Source: a virus. Taken from it: a stretch of DNA of 41,355 nucleotides. The notes beneath the pieces were generated by a model. That model saw only the letters and a list, made by a program, of their open reading frames with translations. It made no database searches and had not been told where the DNA came from. A program made the translations under genes and the position numbers. Of this stretch, positions 28,343-36,328 are shown in pieces; within the stretch, counting starts at the first letter, position 1, and the number at the start of each line of letters is the position of its first letter. The stretch spans positions 1 to 41,355 of the IMG/VR virus record IMGVR_UViG_3300045988_021954; one strand, written 5' to 3'.

Positions 28343-29641
28343 CTAACGTGGCGTTACAAAAAACGCGCCGTCGTCATCTGCATCAATTCTCCGGATGAAG
28401 CGCGTCCAGAATTCCTTTTTTTCTTCTCGCAAGTATGTATCATATTCCGCCAGCCCATTTCGCAGCGCATCAAGGTTTGTCTTCGGCTTTTCCTCTACCG
28501 CTTCAAGGGATTTCTTTAATGTGGTGTACTCTTTCTTGTATTCGTCCAACTCAATCAAGTCGTTAAGATAAAGCGTTTTCAGCTTATCCATTTTCTTTCG
28601 TATCGCGTCCGCGCTTTGCGTGGGCTTTTTTTCTGCCTTTTTATAATAGCGATTGTTTCGCTCGGCAATTCCTTCAAGCTCATGCAATAAATAAGCTTCC
28701 AGCGCATCTTCGCGAATCCTCTTTTTGTGCTGGCACGCGGAGGTGTCAAGCATTCGCGTCCGGCATCGGTAGTAGGTATAGATCTGCTTTGCCGTTTCCG
28801 ACTGCATCGTTTTCCCACACTCTTTGCAATGCAACAAGCCGGAGAACAGATAAACGCGATCTGTCTCAATTCCTGCGCAGCGCTGCGACCGCTGGCGGAG
28901 AATATCATTTACAATGTCAAAATCCTGCTTGCTCACCAGAGCGGGACAGGCATTCTCGATGCCGTACACCTCGCCGATATAAAGCCGGTTCCGGAAATAG
29001 TTTACATATTTGGTATACGCCCTGTCAATGCCCCACGTCTCAAGCATATAGCGCTTTACGCCAAGCACGCTTTGCAGCCTGATATACGCCGCAAACATAT
29101 CTCGCGCGGCATCTGCCGTGCCGTTATCGATCTGGTATTGCCTGCCCTTGATGATATACCCTAAAGGGGCTTTTGACCCTGCCGGTTGGCCTTTTGCGCG
29201 TTTGCCGTCGTTGATAAATTTGATTCGCTCGCTTGTGCGGTCGGCTTCGTCCTGCGCGACGGAAAGCATGATGTTGACCTTTAATCGCCCGGACGCAGTG
29301 CGCGTTTCGTAGTCCTCTTCCGTCGCTTGCCATGTCACGCCGTACTGGTCAAGCCGCGTCTGCACATCGTAGTACCCGGCGACATTGCGAAACCAGCGAT
29401 CGAGTTTAATAAACAAGATCGTGTCTACCTTCCCTGCTTTGCAATCATCCAGCAGCCGCAGGAGCGCGGGGCGCTTTTTGTACGGTTTTCTCGCGGAAAT
29501 TCCCGCGTCCTCGTATATGCCTGCCACGGTCATTTTATTCGCTTTTGCATATCTTATCAGCGCGTCTCTCTGTTCTTGCAGGGACAGGCCATGCCGTGCC
29601 TGTTCCTCGCTCGAGACGCGGATATACAATGCCACTCGCAT
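28343..29641 (-). CDS. int: Large serine recombinase (integrase)
   Basis: N-terminal resolvase catalytic domain VALYIRVSSEEQ..., recombinase domain, and zinc-ribbon CKECGK...YYRC. ATG after GGAGGGGG. Confidence 0.9.
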   Translation of the reverse strand: MRVALYIRVSSEEQARHGLSLQEQRDALIRYAKANKMTVAGIYEDAGISARKPYKKRPALLRLLDDCKAGKVDTILFIKLDRWFRNVAGYYDVQTRLDQYGVTWQATEEDYETRTASGRLKVNIMLSVAQDEADRTSERIKFINDGKRAKGQPAGSKAPLGYIIKGRQYQIDNGTADAARDMFAAYIRLQSVLGVKRYMLETWGIDRAYTKYVNYFRNRLYIGEVYGIENACPALVSKQDFDIVNDILRQRSQRCAGIETDRVYLFSGLLHCKECGKTMQSETAKQIYTYYRCRTRMLDTSACQHKKRIREDALEAYLLHELEGIAERNNRYYKKAEKKPTQSADAIRKKMDKLKTLYLNDLIELDEYKKEYTTLKKSLEAVEEKPKTNLDALRNGLAEYDTYLREEKKEFWTRFIRRIDADDDGAFFVTPR

Positions 29642-30033
29642 CAAATCCCCCTCCAATCAATGTACAAGCACCATGCGGCCAGCAAAACGATAATGACAAA
29701 CATTATAGCAATTACGCCGTTGCGGATACGGACACCGCGCCGCATGATCTCAATGGTATCTGCCTTTGCGTCCACGTGACGTTCCAGCTCATCATTCCGC
29801 GCTTGCAAAGTTTCCTCGGTCGGCGTCAAGTGTTCGGAAATTCCGAACGATTCATCAAGCGATATTCCAATCGCTTTGCAGATCGGCGCAACGGTGTAGA
29901 TGGACGGAGCTTTAGAAAACTTGGAAAAGAAATTCTGCACGGTGGACAGCGGAACGCCGGAAACGTCGGAAATTTCCTGATAGGTCAGTTTCAAATCTTC
30001 TTTACGGATTCTGCACACTTCTTGAATGTTCAT
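29641..30033 (-). CDS. Membrane-anchored XRE-family HTH protein, translationally coupled to the integrase
   Basis: N-terminal HTH LTYQEISDVSGVPLSTVQNF. C-terminal TM VIAIMFVIIVLLAAWCLYI. Its stop overlaps the int ATG. Confidence 0.7.
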   Translation of the reverse strand: MNIQEVCRIRKEDLKLTYQEISDVSGVPLSTVQNFFSKFSKAPSIYTVAPICKAIGISLDESFGISEHLTPTEETLQARNDELERHVDAKADTIEIMRRGVRIRNGVIAIMFVIIVLLAAWCLYIDWRGI

Positions 30034-31228: not shown

Positions 31229-31609
31229 TCATCGCAACTCTTGCAATTTTTTGTTGACCTCGTCAAGCACCATTAACAACACATCACGGTCGTTCGTTTT
31301 TTGGACAAGGTTGCGTAATTCATCGGCGCTCAAGCCCTCGATCTTCGGATCGGGGGCTTTTTTTATACCCTCGGCCTCGACCGTCGGGTCGTCAGTCTCG
31401 CCTTTGAGCCATGCGACGGAAACGTGATATTCATCGGCGATCTGATGGAGCTTTTTCTTGTAGGATTGGCTCGTCCCATTTATCCACATAGAGACAATGT
31501 CGCCACTGCCATATCCGATGCTTTGGGCAAAGGTTTTTTGGGACCCTCTTTTTATTTTCCCGTTTTCATGGGGCAGAAGCGACAAAATGCGGGTAAGTGT
31601 AACATCCAT
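31229..31609 (-). CDS. CI-like phage repressor (HTH only, no peptidase domain)
   Basis: SQKTFAQSIGYGSGDIVSMWINGTSQSYKKKLHQIADEYHVSVAWLKG fits the CI-repressor HTH pattern. Divergent from the cro-like gene. Confidence 0.7.
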   Translation of the reverse strand: MDVTLTRILSLLPHENGKIKRGSQKTFAQSIGYGSGDIVSMWINGTSQSYKKKLHQIADEYHVSVAWLKGETDDPTVEAEGIKKAPDPKIEGLSADELRNLVQKTNDRDVLLMVLDEVNKKLQELR

Positions 31610-31648
31610 AACAATCGCCTCAAAAATTTATGCAGTATAACAAAACTT

Positions 31649-31697
31649 ATAAAATTCGGTTAAGCTGATTGACAAACCGAATTTTATGAGTTATCAT
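31649..31697 (+). promoter_or_regulatory. Genetic switch: 13-bp inverted-repeat operator overlapping the rightward early promoter
   Basis: ATAAAATTCGGTT (31649-31661) / AACCGAATTTTAT (31675-31687). TTGACA (31669-31674), 17-nt spacer, TATCAT (31692-31697). Confidence 0.65.
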
Positions 31698-31844
31698 TGT
31701 ATCAAACCAAGCGGAAAAGGGTGCAAAAAACTCAGCCCCCTCAAAAAGCGGCTTTCTACAATTTCTTTTGGCGAAGCTATTGTATCCCCGTTTTTAGAGG
31801 TTGTCAAGCATGAAACCTCATGTTTATGAGTTTTCCGATTGGTG

Positions 31845-32269
31845 TTGACTGCGGCAGGGAAAACATAAGACCGGCAGGAGCGCTATTCCCACCGGCCAAT
31901 GTCCAAATTTGTTTACCCAATGCCCCTTGCAGGCTTTTGCCGCCTGCAATAGCGCTACAGGTTCTTCAGGAGCCTTACCACTTTCGCAGTTTTGGTTCTG
32001 CGCATTGCCTTCTCGCTGGTAAGCCATCGGGAGTACCCGATACGGTGGGATATGATTACTGGCATATCACCGTGAGTTTTAACCTCTTCACTGAGTGCTC
32101 CGCCGTATCAGTTGCTGCATTTAGCCAGTTTAACGCGCTTTGGCACCGCTGTTGCGACCCGACGGGAAGGGAACAGGCAAAATCAAAAGGTTGGTCAAGA
32201 AAACCACCTCCCTTGAATTTGCCCAAAGAGGGCTAACGGCAGTATAGCAAATATCCCTGCCGCAGTCAA
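31845..32269 (+). ncRNA. Candidate structured RNA domain (or IR-bounded element) in the 0.6-kb early leader
   Basis: Perfect 16-bp inverted repeat TTGACTGCGGCAGGGA / TCCCTGCCGCAGTCAA encloses 393 nt with nested helices. No credible ORF. Confidence 0.45.
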
Positions 32270-32302
32270 TGAAATCTCAAATTAGAAACGGAGGTAGAAA
32301 AG

Positions 32303-32521
32303 TTGGATTTGAAAGAGCTGCGAAACCTTGCAAACCTGACGCGAAAGCAGGTTGCGCGAAAGCTGAACATCGATGTGTCCTGCGTGTCGCATTGGGAGCT
32401 GAATGACTGGGCCCCGCCGCAGAAGCACTGGCGCAAACTGGCGAAGATGTACAACGTGACCGAATCGGAAATCAAGATGCTCGCCGACGAGATCAGAGAG
32501 GGCAATAAGGTGGGCGCATGA
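32303..32521 (+). CDS. Cro-like XRE HTH protein
   Basis: TTG start 7 nt after GGAGGT. LTRKQVARKLNIDVSCVSHWEL is an HTH pattern. First gene of the early rightward operon. Confidence 0.65.
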   Translation: MDLKELRNLANLTRKQVARKLNIDVSCVSHWELNDWAPPQKHWRKLAKMYNVTESEIKMLADEIREGNKVGA

Positions 32522-34776: not shown

Positions 34777-35664
34777 ATGAACGAAATGCAGACCTACAAC
34801 AGCACCGAAGTTGTGAGCGCCAAGAGCGTGAACACCGAAATGATGATCTCCCGTCAGGCACAGGAAGTGCAGGCGGCAATGGTCGTCGCCAAGCGTTTCC
34901 CTCGTGACGAGATCGAAGCGAACAACCGCATTCTCAACGCCTGCAAGCGCAAGAGCCTTGCCGAGCGCGCGATCTATGAATACCCGCGCGGCGGCGAGAA
35001 TGTGACCGGCCCGTCGATCCGTCTCGCCGAGGTCATGGCGCAGAATTGGGGCAACCTCGACTTCGGCATTACCGAGCTGGAGCAGAAGAACGGCGAGAGT
35101 ACCGTCATGGCCTACTGCTGGGATTTGGAGACCAACACCCGCCAGACGAAGATCTTCACCGTGCCGCATATCCGCTACACCAAGAAAGGCAGCGTTGCCC
35201 TCACCGACCCGCGCGACATTTATGAAATGGTCGCCAATCAGGGCGCGCGCCGTATGCGCGCGTGCATTCTTGGCATTATCCCCGGCGACGTGGTAGACGC
35301 CGCTCTTGCGGCGTGTACCAAGACGATGATGGGAAAGAGCGATGAACCCATGATCGACCGCGTACGCAAGATGGGACAGGCGTTCAAGGATGACTTCGGC
35401 GTACCGATGGAGTGCCTTGAAAAGTACATCGGCTGCAAGGCCGAAGCGTTCACGGCGCAGAGCATCGTGCGCCTGCGTAATGTGTATACCTCACTGAAAG
35501 AGGGACGCGCGAGCCGCGAGCAGTATTTTGATCTCCCGACCGTCGAAGTGGACGAGACCACAGGCGAGGTCAAGGACGAGCTGCCCGCTCCCGCTGACGC
35601 CCTCGGTACGCCGGACGACGGAAAGACCGGCACCACCAAGCAGGTGAGCATGAATGATCTGTAA
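34777..35664 (+). CDS. ssDNA-annealing recombinase (RecT/Redbeta superfamily, putative)
   Basis: RBS GAGGAGGAC. GPSIRLAEVMAQNWGNL and ARRMRACILGIIPGD segments. Context: DUF1351 upstream, nuclease and SSB downstream. Confidence 0.6.
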   Translation: MNEMQTYNSTEVVSAKSVNTEMMISRQAQEVQAAMVVAKRFPRDEIEANNRILNACKRKSLAERAIYEYPRGGENVTGPSIRLAEVMAQNWGNLDFGITELEQKNGESTVMAYCWDLETNTRQTKIFTVPHIRYTKKGSVALTDPRDIYEMVANQGARRMRACILGIIPGDVVDAALAACTKTMMGKSDEPMIDRVRKMGQAFKDDFGVPMECLEKYIGCKAEAFTAQSIVRLRNVYTSLKEGRASREQYFDLPTVEVDETTGEVKDELPAPADALGTPDDGKTGTTKQVSMNDL

Positions 35665-36328
35665 GGTCAAGGTCATTTCGACCGGCTCCAAGGGGAACGC
35701 CGTACTGCTGAATGATGAAATACTCATTGACTGCGGCGTTCCCTTTCGGGAACTCGAACCATACTGCAAGGGATTGAGGCTCGTCCTGCTGACGCATGTT
35801 CACGGCGACCACTTCAACCCCGAGACCATCAAGCGCCTGCACTTCCTGCGCCCTGCGCTGCGCTGGTGCGTCCCTCCGTGGCTCATGGAACCGATGGGAC
35901 GCATCGGCGTGGACCGCCGCGTGACCGACGAGGGCACGGCAGGCCATGTGCTGTTCTACTCCTGTTCCTTTCTCTACCCCGTCTGTGTGTCCTACAATTC
36001 CATTCCTCACGATGTTCCGAATTGTGCGTGGCATATCGAATTTGCAAACGGCGAGCGCGTGTTCTATGCGACGGACTGCGCCTCGCTGGACGGCATTGTG
36101 GCGCAGGACTACGACCTTTATCTGATCGAAGCCAATTACGGCGAAGAGGAGATACAGGAGCGCATGAAGCGCAAGCTGGAGGCGGGAGAATTCAGCTATG
36201 AGAGCCGCGCGATGGAGAGCCATCTATCCCGCGAGCAGGCGCGCGCATGGCTCGCCCAAAACGCCGCCATCGGCAAGAGCCATGTGCTCTATCTGCACCA
36301 ACACCAAAGCGAGGAGGAATTGAAATGA
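35654..36328 (+). CDS. MBL-fold metallo-hydrolase (putative recombination exonuclease)
   Basis: HxHxDH motif in LLTHVHGDHF. Confidence 0.75.
   Translation: MICKVKVISTGSKGNAVLLNDEILIDCGVPFRELEPYCKGLRLVLLTHVHGDHFNPETIKRLHFLRPALRWCVPPWLMEPMGRIGVDRRVTDEGTAGHVLFYSCSFLYPVCVSYNSIPHDVPNCAWHIEFANGERVFYATDCASLDGIVAQDYDLYLIEANYGEEEIQERMKRKLEAGEFSYESRAMESHLSREQARAWLAQNAAIGKSHVLYLHQHQSEEELK

What the first reader, a model, noticed from the sequence alone, without database searches (positions are those of the whole stretch)
31700..32302. 0.6-kb untranslated early leader containing a 393-nt domain closed by a perfect 16-bp inverted repeat
About 600 nt lie between the early promoter and the cro-like gene, and the only long ORF (31820-32236) reads as nonsense. 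TTGACTGCGGCAGGGA (31845-31860) pairs perfectly with TCCCTGCCGCAGTCAA (32254-32269), plus two flanking G-U pairs that are possible only on the + strand. Nested inside are:
- AGCGCTATT / AATAGCGCT (31879-31887 / 31948-31956).
- An 8-bp hairpin TTGCAGGC-ttttgcc-GCCTGCAA (31927-31949).
- ATCGGG-agta-CCCGAT (32026-32041).
- CGGTGGGATATG / CATATCACCG (32043-32054 / 32063-32072).
A 12-codon ORF (MKPHVYEFSDWC, 31810-31848) stops inside the 5-prime arm of the closing helix, so its translation could modulate folding. Possible interpretations are a large regulatory or antitermination RNA in the early transcript, a MITE-like insertion with 16-bp terminal inverted repeats, or an invertible segment acted on by the serine recombinase. 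With the late leader at 3903-4590, both major operons begin with long structured leaders.
Basis: partly seen in the sequence, partly recalled or inferred. Interest (0 to 1): 0.75.

Follow-up and report, generated by a model that had tools for sequence, protein, structure and literature searches.

The report
Swappable FuFi-1 RNA cassette, opposite strand
The supposed 0.6-kb empty leader holds a self-contained gene on the opposite strand for a known orphan RNA (FuFi-1), sitting in an inverted-repeat-bounded slot of the phage lysis/lysogeny switch where related gut phages carry other small genes.

Summary
The 16-bp perfect inverted repeat (31845-31860 / 32254-32269) is real. It is the longest perfect inverted repeat within 1 kb anywhere in the window.

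The "nested hairpins" are not features of the early (+) transcript. They belong to a full-length FuFi-1 RNA (Rfam RF02986, 128.9 bits) on the minus strand, 32023..31865.

Comparison with about 60 loci shows FuFi-1 is only the 3' half of a roughly 370-nt RNA (about 32233..31865). This RNA has its own promoter, whose -35 box is the right repeat arm. It also has a covarying 5' domain, a Shine-Dalgarno-like box with a 12- or 22-codon mini-ORF, and an intrinsic terminator that ends at the left arm.

The unit lies between a cro-like gene and a repressor-like gene. It runs co-directionally with the repressor and antisense to the early lytic transcript.

In related human-gut phages the same two arms enclose other cargo, always in the same orientation:
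- FuFi-1 subtypes
- two unannotated, strongly folding small-RNA candidates
- a 43-aa protein (phrog_5079)

One relative lacks the cassette and both arms.

Arm mismatches are mostly G·U-compatible on the + strand. The arms therefore most likely pair in the read-through early transcript and loop out the antisense cargo. This is an inference, not shown.

The inverton reading is not supported, and a classical MITE is unlikely. FuFi-1's function remains unknown.

The parts
31229..31609 (-). Repressor-like (cI-like) gene, 126 aa, downstream of the cassette and co-directional with it
   Evidence: ORF. PHROG transcriptional regulator/repressor families phrog_8 (6.5e-08) and phrog_4. No Pfam hit at 0.01.
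31644..31692 (.). 18-nt operator-like inverted repeat overlapping the spacer of the early promoter
   Evidence: repeat I1 (94% complementary, 13 nt between arms). The same motif is conserved in relatives (sequences).
31669..31697 (+). Early rightward promoter (PR-like), TTGACA-17-TATCAT. It is the only good + strand promoter upstream of cro.
   Evidence: 11 of 12 matches. Conserved in relatives.
31779..31807 (-). Conserved minus-strand promoter TTGACA-17-TACAAT, face to face with the early promoter
   Evidence: 11 of 12 matches. Both hexamers are conserved in 83-85% relatives and in empty-site relatives.
31817..31830 (.). Palindrome CTCATGTTTATGAG (operator-like), between the left arm and the minus-strand promoter
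   Evidence: Read. Conserved as CTCATnnnn(A/G)TGAG in relatives. Its role as an operator is inferred.
31845..31860 (.). Left arm of the inverted repeat. It starts at the last U of the FuFi-1 terminator tail.
   Evidence: Conserved with co-varying changes in relatives.
31865..32023 (-). FuFi-1 RNA core (Rfam RF02986), full length
   Evidence: 128.9 bits against a gathering score of 59.6, E 5e-28, model positions 1-175. Helices covary, with G·U on this strand.
31869..31897 (-). Intrinsic terminator hairpin of the FuFi-1 unit (11 pairs, then UUAUGUUUU)
   Evidence: Covarying stem, columns 501-511 with 519-529.
31879..31956 (-). Loop-loop (kissing) pairing of FuFi-1: 31956-31948 pairs with 31887-31879
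   Evidence: 88.3% of cells paired against 37-58% when slid. Covariation score 0.574 against 0.10-0.23. 0 of 500 shuffles reach it.
32024..32233 (-). Conserved 5' domain of the RNA, not covered by the Rfam model. It includes helices 32164-58/32031-25, 32150-47/32137-34, 32112-10/32037-35 and 32108-04/32044-40, plus a long-range pairing of 32171-69 with 31918-16.
   Evidence: Alignments A1 and A2. RNAalifold finds 50 of 62 pairs with compensatory changes. 92.2% paired against 31-46% when slid, 0 of 500 shuffles. Coordinates.
32130..32198 (-). Mini-ORF (TTG start, 22 codons, MTNLLILPVPFPSGRNSGAKAR), preceded by the SD-like AAGGGAGG at 32214..32207
   Evidence: A start codon (TTG, GTG or ATG) sits at the aligned position in 30 of 33 sequences that have the domain. 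Lengths fall into two classes, 12 and 22 codons. Translation is not shown.
32221..32233 (-). 5'-terminal hairpin GCCCUCUUUGGGC at the predicted transcript start
   Evidence: Present with changed stem sequences in all lineages of A1. Coordinates.
32241..32269 (-). Promoter of the cassette: TTGACT-17-(TG)cTATACT. Its -35 box and the first 10 spacer bases are the right arm.
   Evidence: 10 of 12 matches, with TG extension. A -35/-10 pair at the same place occurs in all 26 sequences of A1 and in every cargo type.
32254..32269 (.). Right arm of the inverted repeat
32303..32521 (+). cro-like HTH gene. It is reached only by transcription through the cassette.
   Evidence: HTH_3, 6.6e-11. PHROG regulators. 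No other + strand promoter found in 31700-32302.

Best explanation
Positions 31845-32269 are an autonomous small-gene cassette (a 'moron') read on the minus strand.

Layout of the cassette:
- A sigma-70-type promoter at 32269..32241.
- A roughly 370-nt structured RNA, about 32233..31865, whose 3' 159 nt are a canonical FuFi-1 RNA.
- A 5' 210 nt that form a covarying domain carrying a Shine-Dalgarno-like box and a mini-ORF.
- An intrinsic terminator.

Position. The cassette occupies a slot in the lysis/lysogeny switch, between the cro ribosome-binding site and the operator/promoter cluster. It runs co-directionally with the repressor and convergently with the early lytic promoter. Every early transcript that reaches cro must therefore be made through the cassette, as its antisense.

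The slot. It is bounded by two inverted 16-18-nt arms. Related gut phages carry different cargo between the same arms.

What is shown:
- the identity and strand of the RNA;
- its extended architecture;
- the promoter and terminator motifs;
- the genomic context;
- cargo replacement;
- the fixed orientation.

What is inferred:
(a) The arms pair in the + strand early transcript as a stem of 16-18 bp or more. This stem loops out the antisense cargo and brings the two halves of the ancestral short cro leader together. It possibly creates a double-stranded site for RNase III.
(b) Expression of the cargo from the prophage opposes early lytic expression, by convergent transcription and by full-length sense/antisense pairing.
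(c) Because FuFi-1 is so conserved, it also has an unknown function in trans.
For: Identity and strand:
- The Rfam FuFi-1 hit is on the minus strand at 128.9 bits.
- Core helices show G·U on that strand, 219 cells against 44 A·C cells.
- The loop-loop pairing covaries.

Extended RNA:
- Unit length is constant at 382-386 nt in most of 58 unique loci.
- Five extra helices are 92% paired against 31-46% when slid, with 0 of 500 shuffles reaching the observed values.

Promoter and terminator:
- Both are found in the window and are conserved in all lineages.

Context:
- In 10 lineages tested, 6 of 10 downstream co-directional ORFs are Cro/C1-type HTH. A further 8 of 10 adjacent oppositely oriented small ORFs are also Cro/C1-type HTH.
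- The flanking genes in the window are annotated.

Cassette slot:
- Similarity to other phages stops at the arms. It runs from 32277/32269 to 31845 in the window, at 94% and 77% identity, with unrelated flanks.
- The same arms enclose cargo types A-F. Type D is also FuFi-1 (95 bits), while types A, B and C have no Rfam match.
- An independent metagenome set shows one arm junction with cargo B (16), C (7) and D/E (9).
- The empty-site relative L148 lacks the unit.

Stem on the + strand:
- A-U to G·U to G-C series are seen between lineages.
- About 12-14 G·U-compatible events fall on + against 3-4 on minus.
- Flank duplexes are more stable on + in 43 of 59 loci.
- Unrelated arm sequences occur at equivalent positions in L104 (27 nt, perfect), L122 and L085.
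- The + leader fold contains the helix, z = -4.65.
Against: - There are no expression data of any kind. Promoters, transcript ends and read-through are all predictions.
- About half of the FuFi-1 lineages have no flanking inverted repeat. The stem therefore cannot be essential to FuFi-1 itself.
- The G·U counts are small and partly non-independent. The upstream arm is also constrained as a -35 box, which biases which arm can change.
- A + strand stem has no demonstrated role.
- Arm conservation across cargo types could also reflect use as recombination anchors.
- FuFi-1 copies outside prophages exist (L121 and L126, beside rplM-rpsI). The RNA is therefore not purely a switch-region antisense device.
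- The discoverers reported that FuFi-1 is rarely in 5' UTRs and shows no self-cleavage. Its function is unknown (PMC5737381).
Confidence: 0.6

Rival explanations
1. The 393-nt domain is a structured regulatory or antitermination RNA of the early + strand transcript, and the nested hairpins are its own functional elements.
For: The + strand leader folds well (-210 kcal/mol, z = -4.65) with the closing helix. The outer arms fit + strand pairing.
Against: - The interior is a full-length minus-strand FuFi-1.
- Interior helices carry G·U on the minus strand, 219 against 44. Five of these are in the window itself and would be A·C on +.
- The interior is replaced by unrelated cargo in relatives.
- No Rfam family hits the + strand.
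- The uORF is not conserved.
Confidence: 0.04
2. The unit is a DNA-level mobile element. The arms are terminal inverted repeats of a non-autonomous, MITE-like cassette that carries variable cargo and is moved by a transposase or recombinase acting in trans.
For: Homology is bounded by the arms. Identical termini carry at least 6 cargo types. A close relative lacks the unit and both arms. Other FuFi-1 lineages have unrelated perfect repeats at the same places (L104, 27 nt).
Against: - There is no target-site duplication.
- There is one copy per phage genome, always at the same site and in the same orientation.
- The indel relative to the empty site is offset. It includes 13 nt beyond the left repeat end and leaves CAA(T) of the other arm.
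- The upstream arm is a functional-looking -35 box shared by all cargo promoters.
- Mismatch asymmetry favours RNA pairing.
- No transposase is in view.
Confidence: 0.12
3. The arms are short conserved boundary ('linker') sequences. They serve as anchors for homologous or recombinase-assisted exchange of cargo between co-infecting phages. Their inverted relationship is a by-product, for example of a duplicated promoter segment.
For: Cargo-specific sequence begins inside the promoter spacer, right after the arm, and ends at the terminator tail right before the other arm. The 13 nt left of the upstream arm resemble the sequence upstream of the next minus-strand promoter. The mosaic is 94% identical inside with unrelated flanks.
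Against: - Exchange needs direct homology between genomes, not an inverted relation within one genome.
- Inverted arms with unrelated sequences recur in L104, L122 and L085.
- L060 and L011 extend the inverted repeat outward with lineage-specific sequence.
- Both points indicate selection for complementarity itself.
Confidence: 0.15
4. The segment is an invertible promoter switch (inverton), flipped by a recombinase such as the serine recombinase at 28343-29656.
For: Inverted repeats flank a promoter-bearing segment. A serine recombinase gene lies 2.2 kb away.
Against: - All related contigs, roughly 100 across 6 cargo types, have the cargo co-directional with the repressor.
- Inverted-junction 24-28-mers give 0 hits in IMG/VR. 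They also give 0 hits in metagenomes, against 35 native junctions.
- The recombinase has the large-serine-integrase architecture, Resolvase plus Zn_ribbon_recom.
Confidence: 0.02
5. The two arms are DNA sites for one regulatory protein. Binding at both ends loops the DNA and controls the cargo promoter or early transcription.
For: One arm overlaps a -35 box. Phage switches often use distant operators.
Against: - The arms are not themselves dyad-symmetric in most relatives (CTGCGGCGG).
- They do not resemble the operator repeat at 31644-31692.
- Arm spacing varies from 169 to 426 bp.
- Perfect 18-27-nt complementarity exceeds what a protein site needs.
- The transition bias fits RNA pairing.
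Confidence: 0.05

Closest known systems
FuFi-1 RNA motif (Rfam RF02986; Weinberg et al. 2017, PMC5737381)
   Same: The sequence is a full-length match at 128.9 bits. It has the same helices, the same invariant stretches (GCAGAACCAAAACUGC, GGGUAAACAAAUUUGG), the same loop-loop pairing and a 3' intrinsic terminator.
   Different: - Here the motif is the 3' half of a roughly 370-nt unit. The conserved promoter, 5' hairpin, SD-like box, mini-ORF and five further covarying helices are not in the 175-position Rfam model.
- The unit has a consistent placement in prophage switch regions, antisense to the early operon.
- In one clade the unit is framed by inverted arms.
- I could not read the discovery paper's supplement. 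I therefore cannot say how much of the context was already noted there.
Morons of temperate phages: autonomous units with their own promoter and terminator, inserted between genes (concept of Hendrix and colleagues; from my own knowledge)
   Same: The unit is self-contained with a promoter and a factor-independent terminator. It is present or absent, or replaced, among close relatives. It is predicted to be expressed from the prophage.
   Different: - The cargo is mostly non-coding RNA.
- The unit lies inside the leader of the first early gene, so lytic transcription must read through it antisense.
- All cargo types share one -35 box.
- The slot is framed by inverted arms.
Antisense and convergent-promoter control in phage switches: lambda OOP, P22 sar, coliphage 186 pR/pL (from my own knowledge)
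   Same: A prophage-side transcript is made convergently against an early lytic transcript. Face-to-face promoters are also present here (31807..31779 against 31669-31697).
   Different: - Those RNAs are short, and their sequence is dictated by the gene they overlap.
- FuFi-1 is long and ornate, and it is conserved across phages with unrelated flanks.
- Antisense action alone therefore does not explain it.
- No interference has been measured here.
RNase III-processed leader stems of phage early transcripts: the lambda N leader and T7 early sites (from my own knowledge)
   Same: A long double-stranded stem sits just upstream of the ribosome-binding site of the first early gene. The right arm ends 33 nt before the cro start.
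   Different: Here the stem would enclose about 170-430 nt of antisense cargo. Cleavage is entirely hypothetical and could not be tested with these tools.
MITEs and invertons
   Same: Perfect inverted repeats flank a short non-coding or promoter-bearing segment.
   Different: There is no target-site duplication, a single copy, a fixed site and a fixed orientation.

Membership tests
FuFi-1 RNA (RF02986) | Covariance-model score at or above the curated gathering score, over the full model | tested here: met
   128.9 bits against 59.6, model positions 1-175, minus strand 32023..31865.
FuFi-1 RNA (RF02986) | Model helices are kept by compensatory changes on the strand of the hit | tested here: met
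   RNAalifold on 35 sequences finds core pairs with many double changes. G·U falls on the sense strand, 219 against 44.
FuFi-1 RNA (RF02986) | A Rho-independent terminator at the 3' end (PMC5737381) | tested here: met
   Hairpin 31897..31869 followed by a U-rich tail. The stem covaries.
FuFi-1 RNA (RF02986) | Occurrence in Firmicutes or Fusobacteria | tested here: inconclusive
   Related copies occur in Lachnospiraceae, Oscillospiraceae, Eubacterium and other Clostridia genomes. The host of this window itself was not determined.
Moron (autonomous phage transcription unit) | Own promoter and own terminator flanking the cargo | tested here: met
   Consensus-type promoter at 32269..32241 and a terminator at 31897..31869. 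Both are conserved in all cargo types. This is sequence evidence only.
Moron (autonomous phage transcription unit) | Absent or replaced in otherwise similar phages | tested here: met
   L148 lacks the unit. Cargo types A-F occupy the same slot.
Moron (autonomous phage transcription unit) | Expressed from the repressed prophage | not testable with these tools
   This needs RNA-seq or a Northern blot of a lysogen.
MITE / non-autonomous transposon | Terminal inverted repeats | tested here: met
   16-18-nt perfect arms.
MITE / non-autonomous transposon | Target-site duplication flanking the repeats | tested here: not met
   The flanks are GATTGGTG| and |TGAAATCT, with no direct repeat. The comparison with the empty site shows offset edges.
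MITE / non-autonomous transposon | Multiple copies at different sites | tested here: not met
   There are two arm copies, that is one unit, in the window. There is one unit per contig in 90 IMG/VR contigs, always in the switch region.
Inverton (invertible promoter) | Both orientations are observed | tested here: not met
   0 inverted junctions in IMG/VR. 0 in metagenomes against 35 native junctions. These are assembled contigs only; raw reads were not examined.
Inverton (invertible promoter) | A dedicated invertase acts on the repeats | not tested
   The only recombinase seen is a large serine recombinase of integrase type at 28343-29656.
cis-antisense RNA of a phage switch | A transcript overlaps and opposes an early lytic transcript | tested here: inconclusive
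   The geometry is met by predicted promoters and by gene context in 10 of 10 lineages. Transcription and any effect are not shown.

The most novel reading that the evidence does not exclude
The inverted arms define a previously undescribed kind of exchangeable slot for small genes in the lysis/lysogeny switch of gut Clostridia phages.

The cargo is expressed from the prophage. It can be FuFi-1, two new sRNA candidates or a 43-aa protein.

The arms form a double-stranded RNA clamp in the lytic read-through transcript. This clamp loops out, or lets RNase III excise, the antisense copy of whatever cargo is present. Cargo can then be swapped without disabling cro expression.

Under this reading FuFi-1, so far an orphan 'sophisticated' RNA, is a prophage immunity or superinfection-related RNA. 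Its real unit is about 370 nt, with a translated or translation-sensing mini-ORF.
Probability: 0.25. Interest if true: 0.8.

Novelty: new variant of a known kind. Interest (0 to 1): 0.6.

Why it matters
FuFi-1 was singled out in 2017 as one of a few widespread bacterial RNAs whose conservation suggests a sophisticated biochemical role. In the papers I could search, nothing about its function has been published since.

This locus gives three concrete handles:
- The natural unit is about twice as long as the Rfam model and includes a conserved mini-ORF. Earlier biochemical tests of the motif may therefore have used an incomplete RNA.
- In phages the unit sits at a defined place in the lysis/lysogeny switch, antisense to the early operon. 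This predicts phenotypes in lysogeny maintenance, induction and superinfection.
- Nature has already done cargo-swap and deletion experiments in closely related human-gut phages.

The inverted-arm slot is also a compact example of how temperate phages may accommodate exchangeable small genes inside an essential leader.

Tried and rejected
- **Phage GenBank records.** blastn of 31600-32320 found one weak partial hit, in the cro part only, on an unannotated record. It gave no help.
- **tRNA and tmRNA scan.** None found in the window.
- **Other Rfam families.** Searched at E up to 10 across 31500-32400. Only chance-level miRNA and CRISPR-repeat hits appeared. Nothing hit the + strand interior or the 5' domain.
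- **The left arm as a + strand promoter.** The TTGACT is present, but no -10 box lies at 16-18 nt in any cargo type (sequence reading).
- **A cro promoter between the right arm and 32303.** Only 33 nt are available, and the scan found none.
Neither is conserved.
- **Generalising cargo swapping to the L104 lineage.** The L104 arm sequence occurs in only that one contig, so there was nothing to compare.
- **An early filter error.** My first FuFi-1 filter required GGTAAAnAAATTT and missed GAGTAAAC variants. This was corrected.
- **An orientation error.** My orientation heuristic flipped L011 and L060. I re-read their signs by hand.
- **Supplementary text of the discovery paper.** It is not held in the library.
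- **The 22-aa peptide.** I did not search protein databases with it, because gene callers rarely report products that short.
Full report
**1. What is in the sequence**

The region lies between two divergent regulator genes.
- One is a repressor-like gene at 31229-31609 on the minus strand (PHROG repressor families).
- The other is a cro-like HTH gene at 32303-32521 on the plus strand (HTH_3, 6.6e-11). It is followed by an antirepressor gene (ANT/AntA).

It is the longest perfect inverted repeat within 1 kb in the 41-kb window, and the 16-mer has no third copy.

The only good plus-strand promoter upstream of cro is TTGACA-17-TATCAT at 31669-31697.

**2. The interior belongs to the other strand**

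A scan against Rfam gives a full-length FuFi-1 RNA (RF02986) on the minus strand at 32023..31865. The score is 128.9 bits against a gathering score of 59.6, E 5e-28. Its last helix is an intrinsic terminator at 31897..31869.

- The pairing 31879-87 / 31948-56 is a loop-loop contact. It covaries strongly across 35 sequences: 88% paired against 37-58% when slid, and 0 of 500 shuffles reach the covariation score.
- The hairpin at 31927-49 is stem P2b with neighbouring bases.

The strand is settled by wobble pairs. Across 53 unique sequences the core helices have 219 G·U cells on the FuFi-1 strand and 44 A·C cells.

The discovery paper describes FuFi-1 as a highly conserved motif with a 3' terminator. 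It reports that the motif is rarely in 5' UTRs, shows no self-cleavage and has unknown function (PMC5737381). I found no later paper that mentions it.

**3. The gene is about twice as long as the Rfam model**

I collected FuFi-1 loci from viral contigs and genomes. The genome copies come from Lachnospiraceae, Oscillospiraceae, Eubacterium and other Clostridia. I aligned 26 and then 35 diverse units.

All phage-borne copies share the following, in order:
- a -35/-10 promoter pair (in the window TTGACT-17-TGcTATACT, 32269..32241);
- a 5'-terminal hairpin (32233..32221);
- an AAGGAG box (32214..32207);
- a start codon;
- a conserved stretch;
- the Rfam core.

The length from the predicted start to the terminator is 382-386 nt in most of 58 unique loci.

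RNAalifold finds 62 pairs, 50 of them with compensatory changes. I tested separately the five helices that lie outside, or reach outside, the Rfam model. They are 92.2% paired against 31-46% when slid. The covariation score is 0.50 against about 0.1, and 0 of 500 shuffles reach the observed values.

One of these helices joins CCC/CUC at 32171-69 to GGG/GAG of the near-invariant GGGUAAAC at 31918-16.

The stretch after the AAGGAG box reads as a mini-ORF.
- TTG, GTG or ATG occupies the aligned start in 30 of 33 sequences that have this domain.
- Lengths fall into two classes, 12 and 22 codons.
- The peptide pattern is M-T-K-L-L-x-L-P-[AV]-x.

Whether the mini-ORF is translated is open, because the same bases take part in RNA pairing.

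**4. Context**

In every phage lineage examined, the unit is co-directional with a repressor-type gene downstream. It is oppositely oriented to an adjacent small Cro/C1-type gene (ORF maps). Pfam confirms HTH_3/HTH_26 for 6 of 10 of the former and 8 of 10 of the latter.

Early lytic transcription must therefore cross the unit antisense. Two genome copies (L121, L126) are chromosomal, lie next to rplM-rpsI and lack the 5' domain.

**5. The inverted repeat marks a cassette slot**

Three observations changed the picture.

First, similarity between the window and phages with unrelated flanks stops at the arms. It corresponds to window 32277/32269 down to 31845, at 94% identity in L060 and L011 and at 77% in L008, L017, L096 and L103.

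Second, I fetched 69 loci through the repressor protein. In them the same arms, at the same distance from the repressor gene, enclose different cargo:
- canonical FuFi-1;
- a FuFi-1 subtype with a roughly 95-nt insertion (95 bits), plus a truncated form of it;
- a 355-nt FuFi-1 subtype;
- two unrelated units of about 120 nt with no Rfam match, which fold with z = -6.1 and -7.4 and carry terminators;
- a unit encoding a 43-aa basic protein (phrog_5079, 2e-10).

Every cargo uses the TTGACT of the upstream arm as its -35 box. Each brings its own -10 box 17 nt later and ends in a terminator whose U-tail abuts the downstream arm.

Metagenome contigs give the same result. Of 35 contigs holding one arm junction, 32 could be classified: 16 carry cargo B, 7 carry C and 9 carry D/E.

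Third, one close relative, L148, is 99% identical on the repressor side yet lacks the cassette and both arms. Its cro ribosome-binding site runs straight into the operator-like palindrome. More distant relatives (L157, L168, L187) have the same short layout.

**6. What the arms do**

*Inversion is not supported.*
- All related contigs have the same orientation.
- Inverted-junction sequences give 0 hits in IMG/VR.
- They also give 0 hits in the metagenome collection, against 35 native junctions.

*A classical MITE is unlikely.*
- There is no target-site duplication.
- There is one unit per genome, at one site.
- The indel relative to L148 is offset from the repeat ends.

*Selection for complementarity itself is indicated.*
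- Changes occur in both arms together: GCAGGGA/TCCCTGC in the window against GCGGGGA/TCCCCGC in the 18-nt perfect version.
- L060 and L011 carry lineage-specific outward extensions of the repeat.
- Unrelated repeats occur at equivalent positions in L104 (27 nt, perfect), L122 and L085.

*The mismatches point to the plus strand.*
- Intermediates such as L003 and L101 are G·U on + and A·C on minus.
- Over all arm pairs I count about 12-14 such events against 3-4 of the opposite kind. I corrected L011 and L060 by hand because my script had flipped them.
- The interior helices show the opposite bias. A general mutational asymmetry therefore does not explain both.
- Flank duplexes are more stable on + in 43 of 59 loci, by 5-22 kcal/mol in the repeat-bearing clade.
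- The + leader fold contains the helix.

I therefore think the arms most likely pair in the read-through early transcript. That pairing would loop out the antisense cargo and restore the short-leader geometry seen in empty-site phages. I put this at roughly 0.4-0.45.

The caveats are real:
- The counts are small and partly non-independent.
- The upstream arm is also constrained as a -35 box.
- About half of the FuFi-1 lineages have no such repeat.
- No role for the stem is demonstrated.

**7. Likely mechanism, with shown and inferred steps marked**

Shown by sequence comparison:
- an autonomous minus-strand RNA gene;
- its extended structure;
- its fixed place and orientation in the switch region;
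- exchange and loss of cargo among relatives.

Inferred:
- The cargo is expressed from the prophage.
- It opposes early lytic expression through convergent transcription and sense/antisense pairing.
- The arms insulate cro expression from the insert at the RNA level, possibly through RNase III.
- FuFi-1 has an additional trans function. This is suggested by its conservation across phages with unrelated flanks and by the chromosomal copies.

**8. Verdict**

- The central object is a member of a known but functionally orphan RNA family.
- As far as I could check, three things are new: the longer unit, the switch-region placement and the inverted-arm slot with exchangeable cargo.

I rate the finding as a new variant of a known kind, with interest 0.6.

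Noticed in passing
window 4192-4286 (+): A skipping-rope RNA (Rfam RF02924, 45.6 bits against a gathering score of 36.7) lies in the 730-nt gap 3865-4591, upstream of terS-like (4592-5023) and terL-like (5429-6664) ORFs. It is another orphan motif from the same 2017 study. No DUF3800-like gene was obvious nearby.
   Followed up: partly
L143:2089-2279 and L159:2088-2280 (and many relatives): Two unrelated units of about 120 nt occupy the same inverted-arm slot in related phages. Each has its own -10 box and terminator. Neither has an Rfam match at E <= 0.05. Both fold very stably (z = -6.1 and -7.4). They are candidate new phage small RNAs.
   Followed up: partly
L164:1976-2280 (and L167, L175, L176, L185, L188, L195): The slot can instead hold a gene with a Shine-Dalgarno box for a 43-aa basic protein, MAKNSVRTSKTVASKASKALSSGKTSKTTKTIAASALSNRRSK. 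It matches phrog_5079 (unknown function), E 2e-10.
   Followed up: partly
window 32130-32214 (-): A conserved AAGGAG box and a mini-ORF lie inside the FuFi-1 5' domain. The start codon varies among TTG, GTG and ATG. There are two length classes, 12 and 22 codons. Codon 10 covaries with the GGG of the invariant GGGUAAAC. This could be a translated leader peptide or pure RNA conservation.
   Followed up: partly
window 31779-31807 (-) against 31669-31697 (+); palindrome at 31817-31830: A conserved minus-strand promoter (TTGACA-17-TACAAT) faces the early promoter about 70 nt away. Just upstream of it is an operator-like palindrome, CTCATGTTTATGAG. A second, weaker minus-strand promoter at 31663..31634 abuts the repressor gene. 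The layout recalls the face-to-face promoters of coliphage 186.
   Followed up: partly
L121 and L126: FuFi-1 copies in Lachnospiraceae and Acetatifactor genomes lie in a chromosomal, non-phage context (next to rplM-rpsI and a cardiolipin-synthase-like gene). They lack the phage-type 5' domain.
   Followed up: no
L192:about 1900-2400: In this relative an unrelated insert of about 400 nt, with no Rfam match, follows the minus-strand promoter upstream of the repressor gene. The switch region may therefore have a second variable spot.
   Followed up: no
window 34857-34875 / 35834-35852: A 19-nt, 95% complementary inverted repeat with 958 nt between its arms lies in the early gene region.
   Followed up: no
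L254:774-1115: A hybrid cargo has the FuFi-type promoter and FuFi-1 terminator, but the interior is replaced by about 250 nt of unrelated sequence. It looks like a rearranged or decayed cassette.
   Followed up: no
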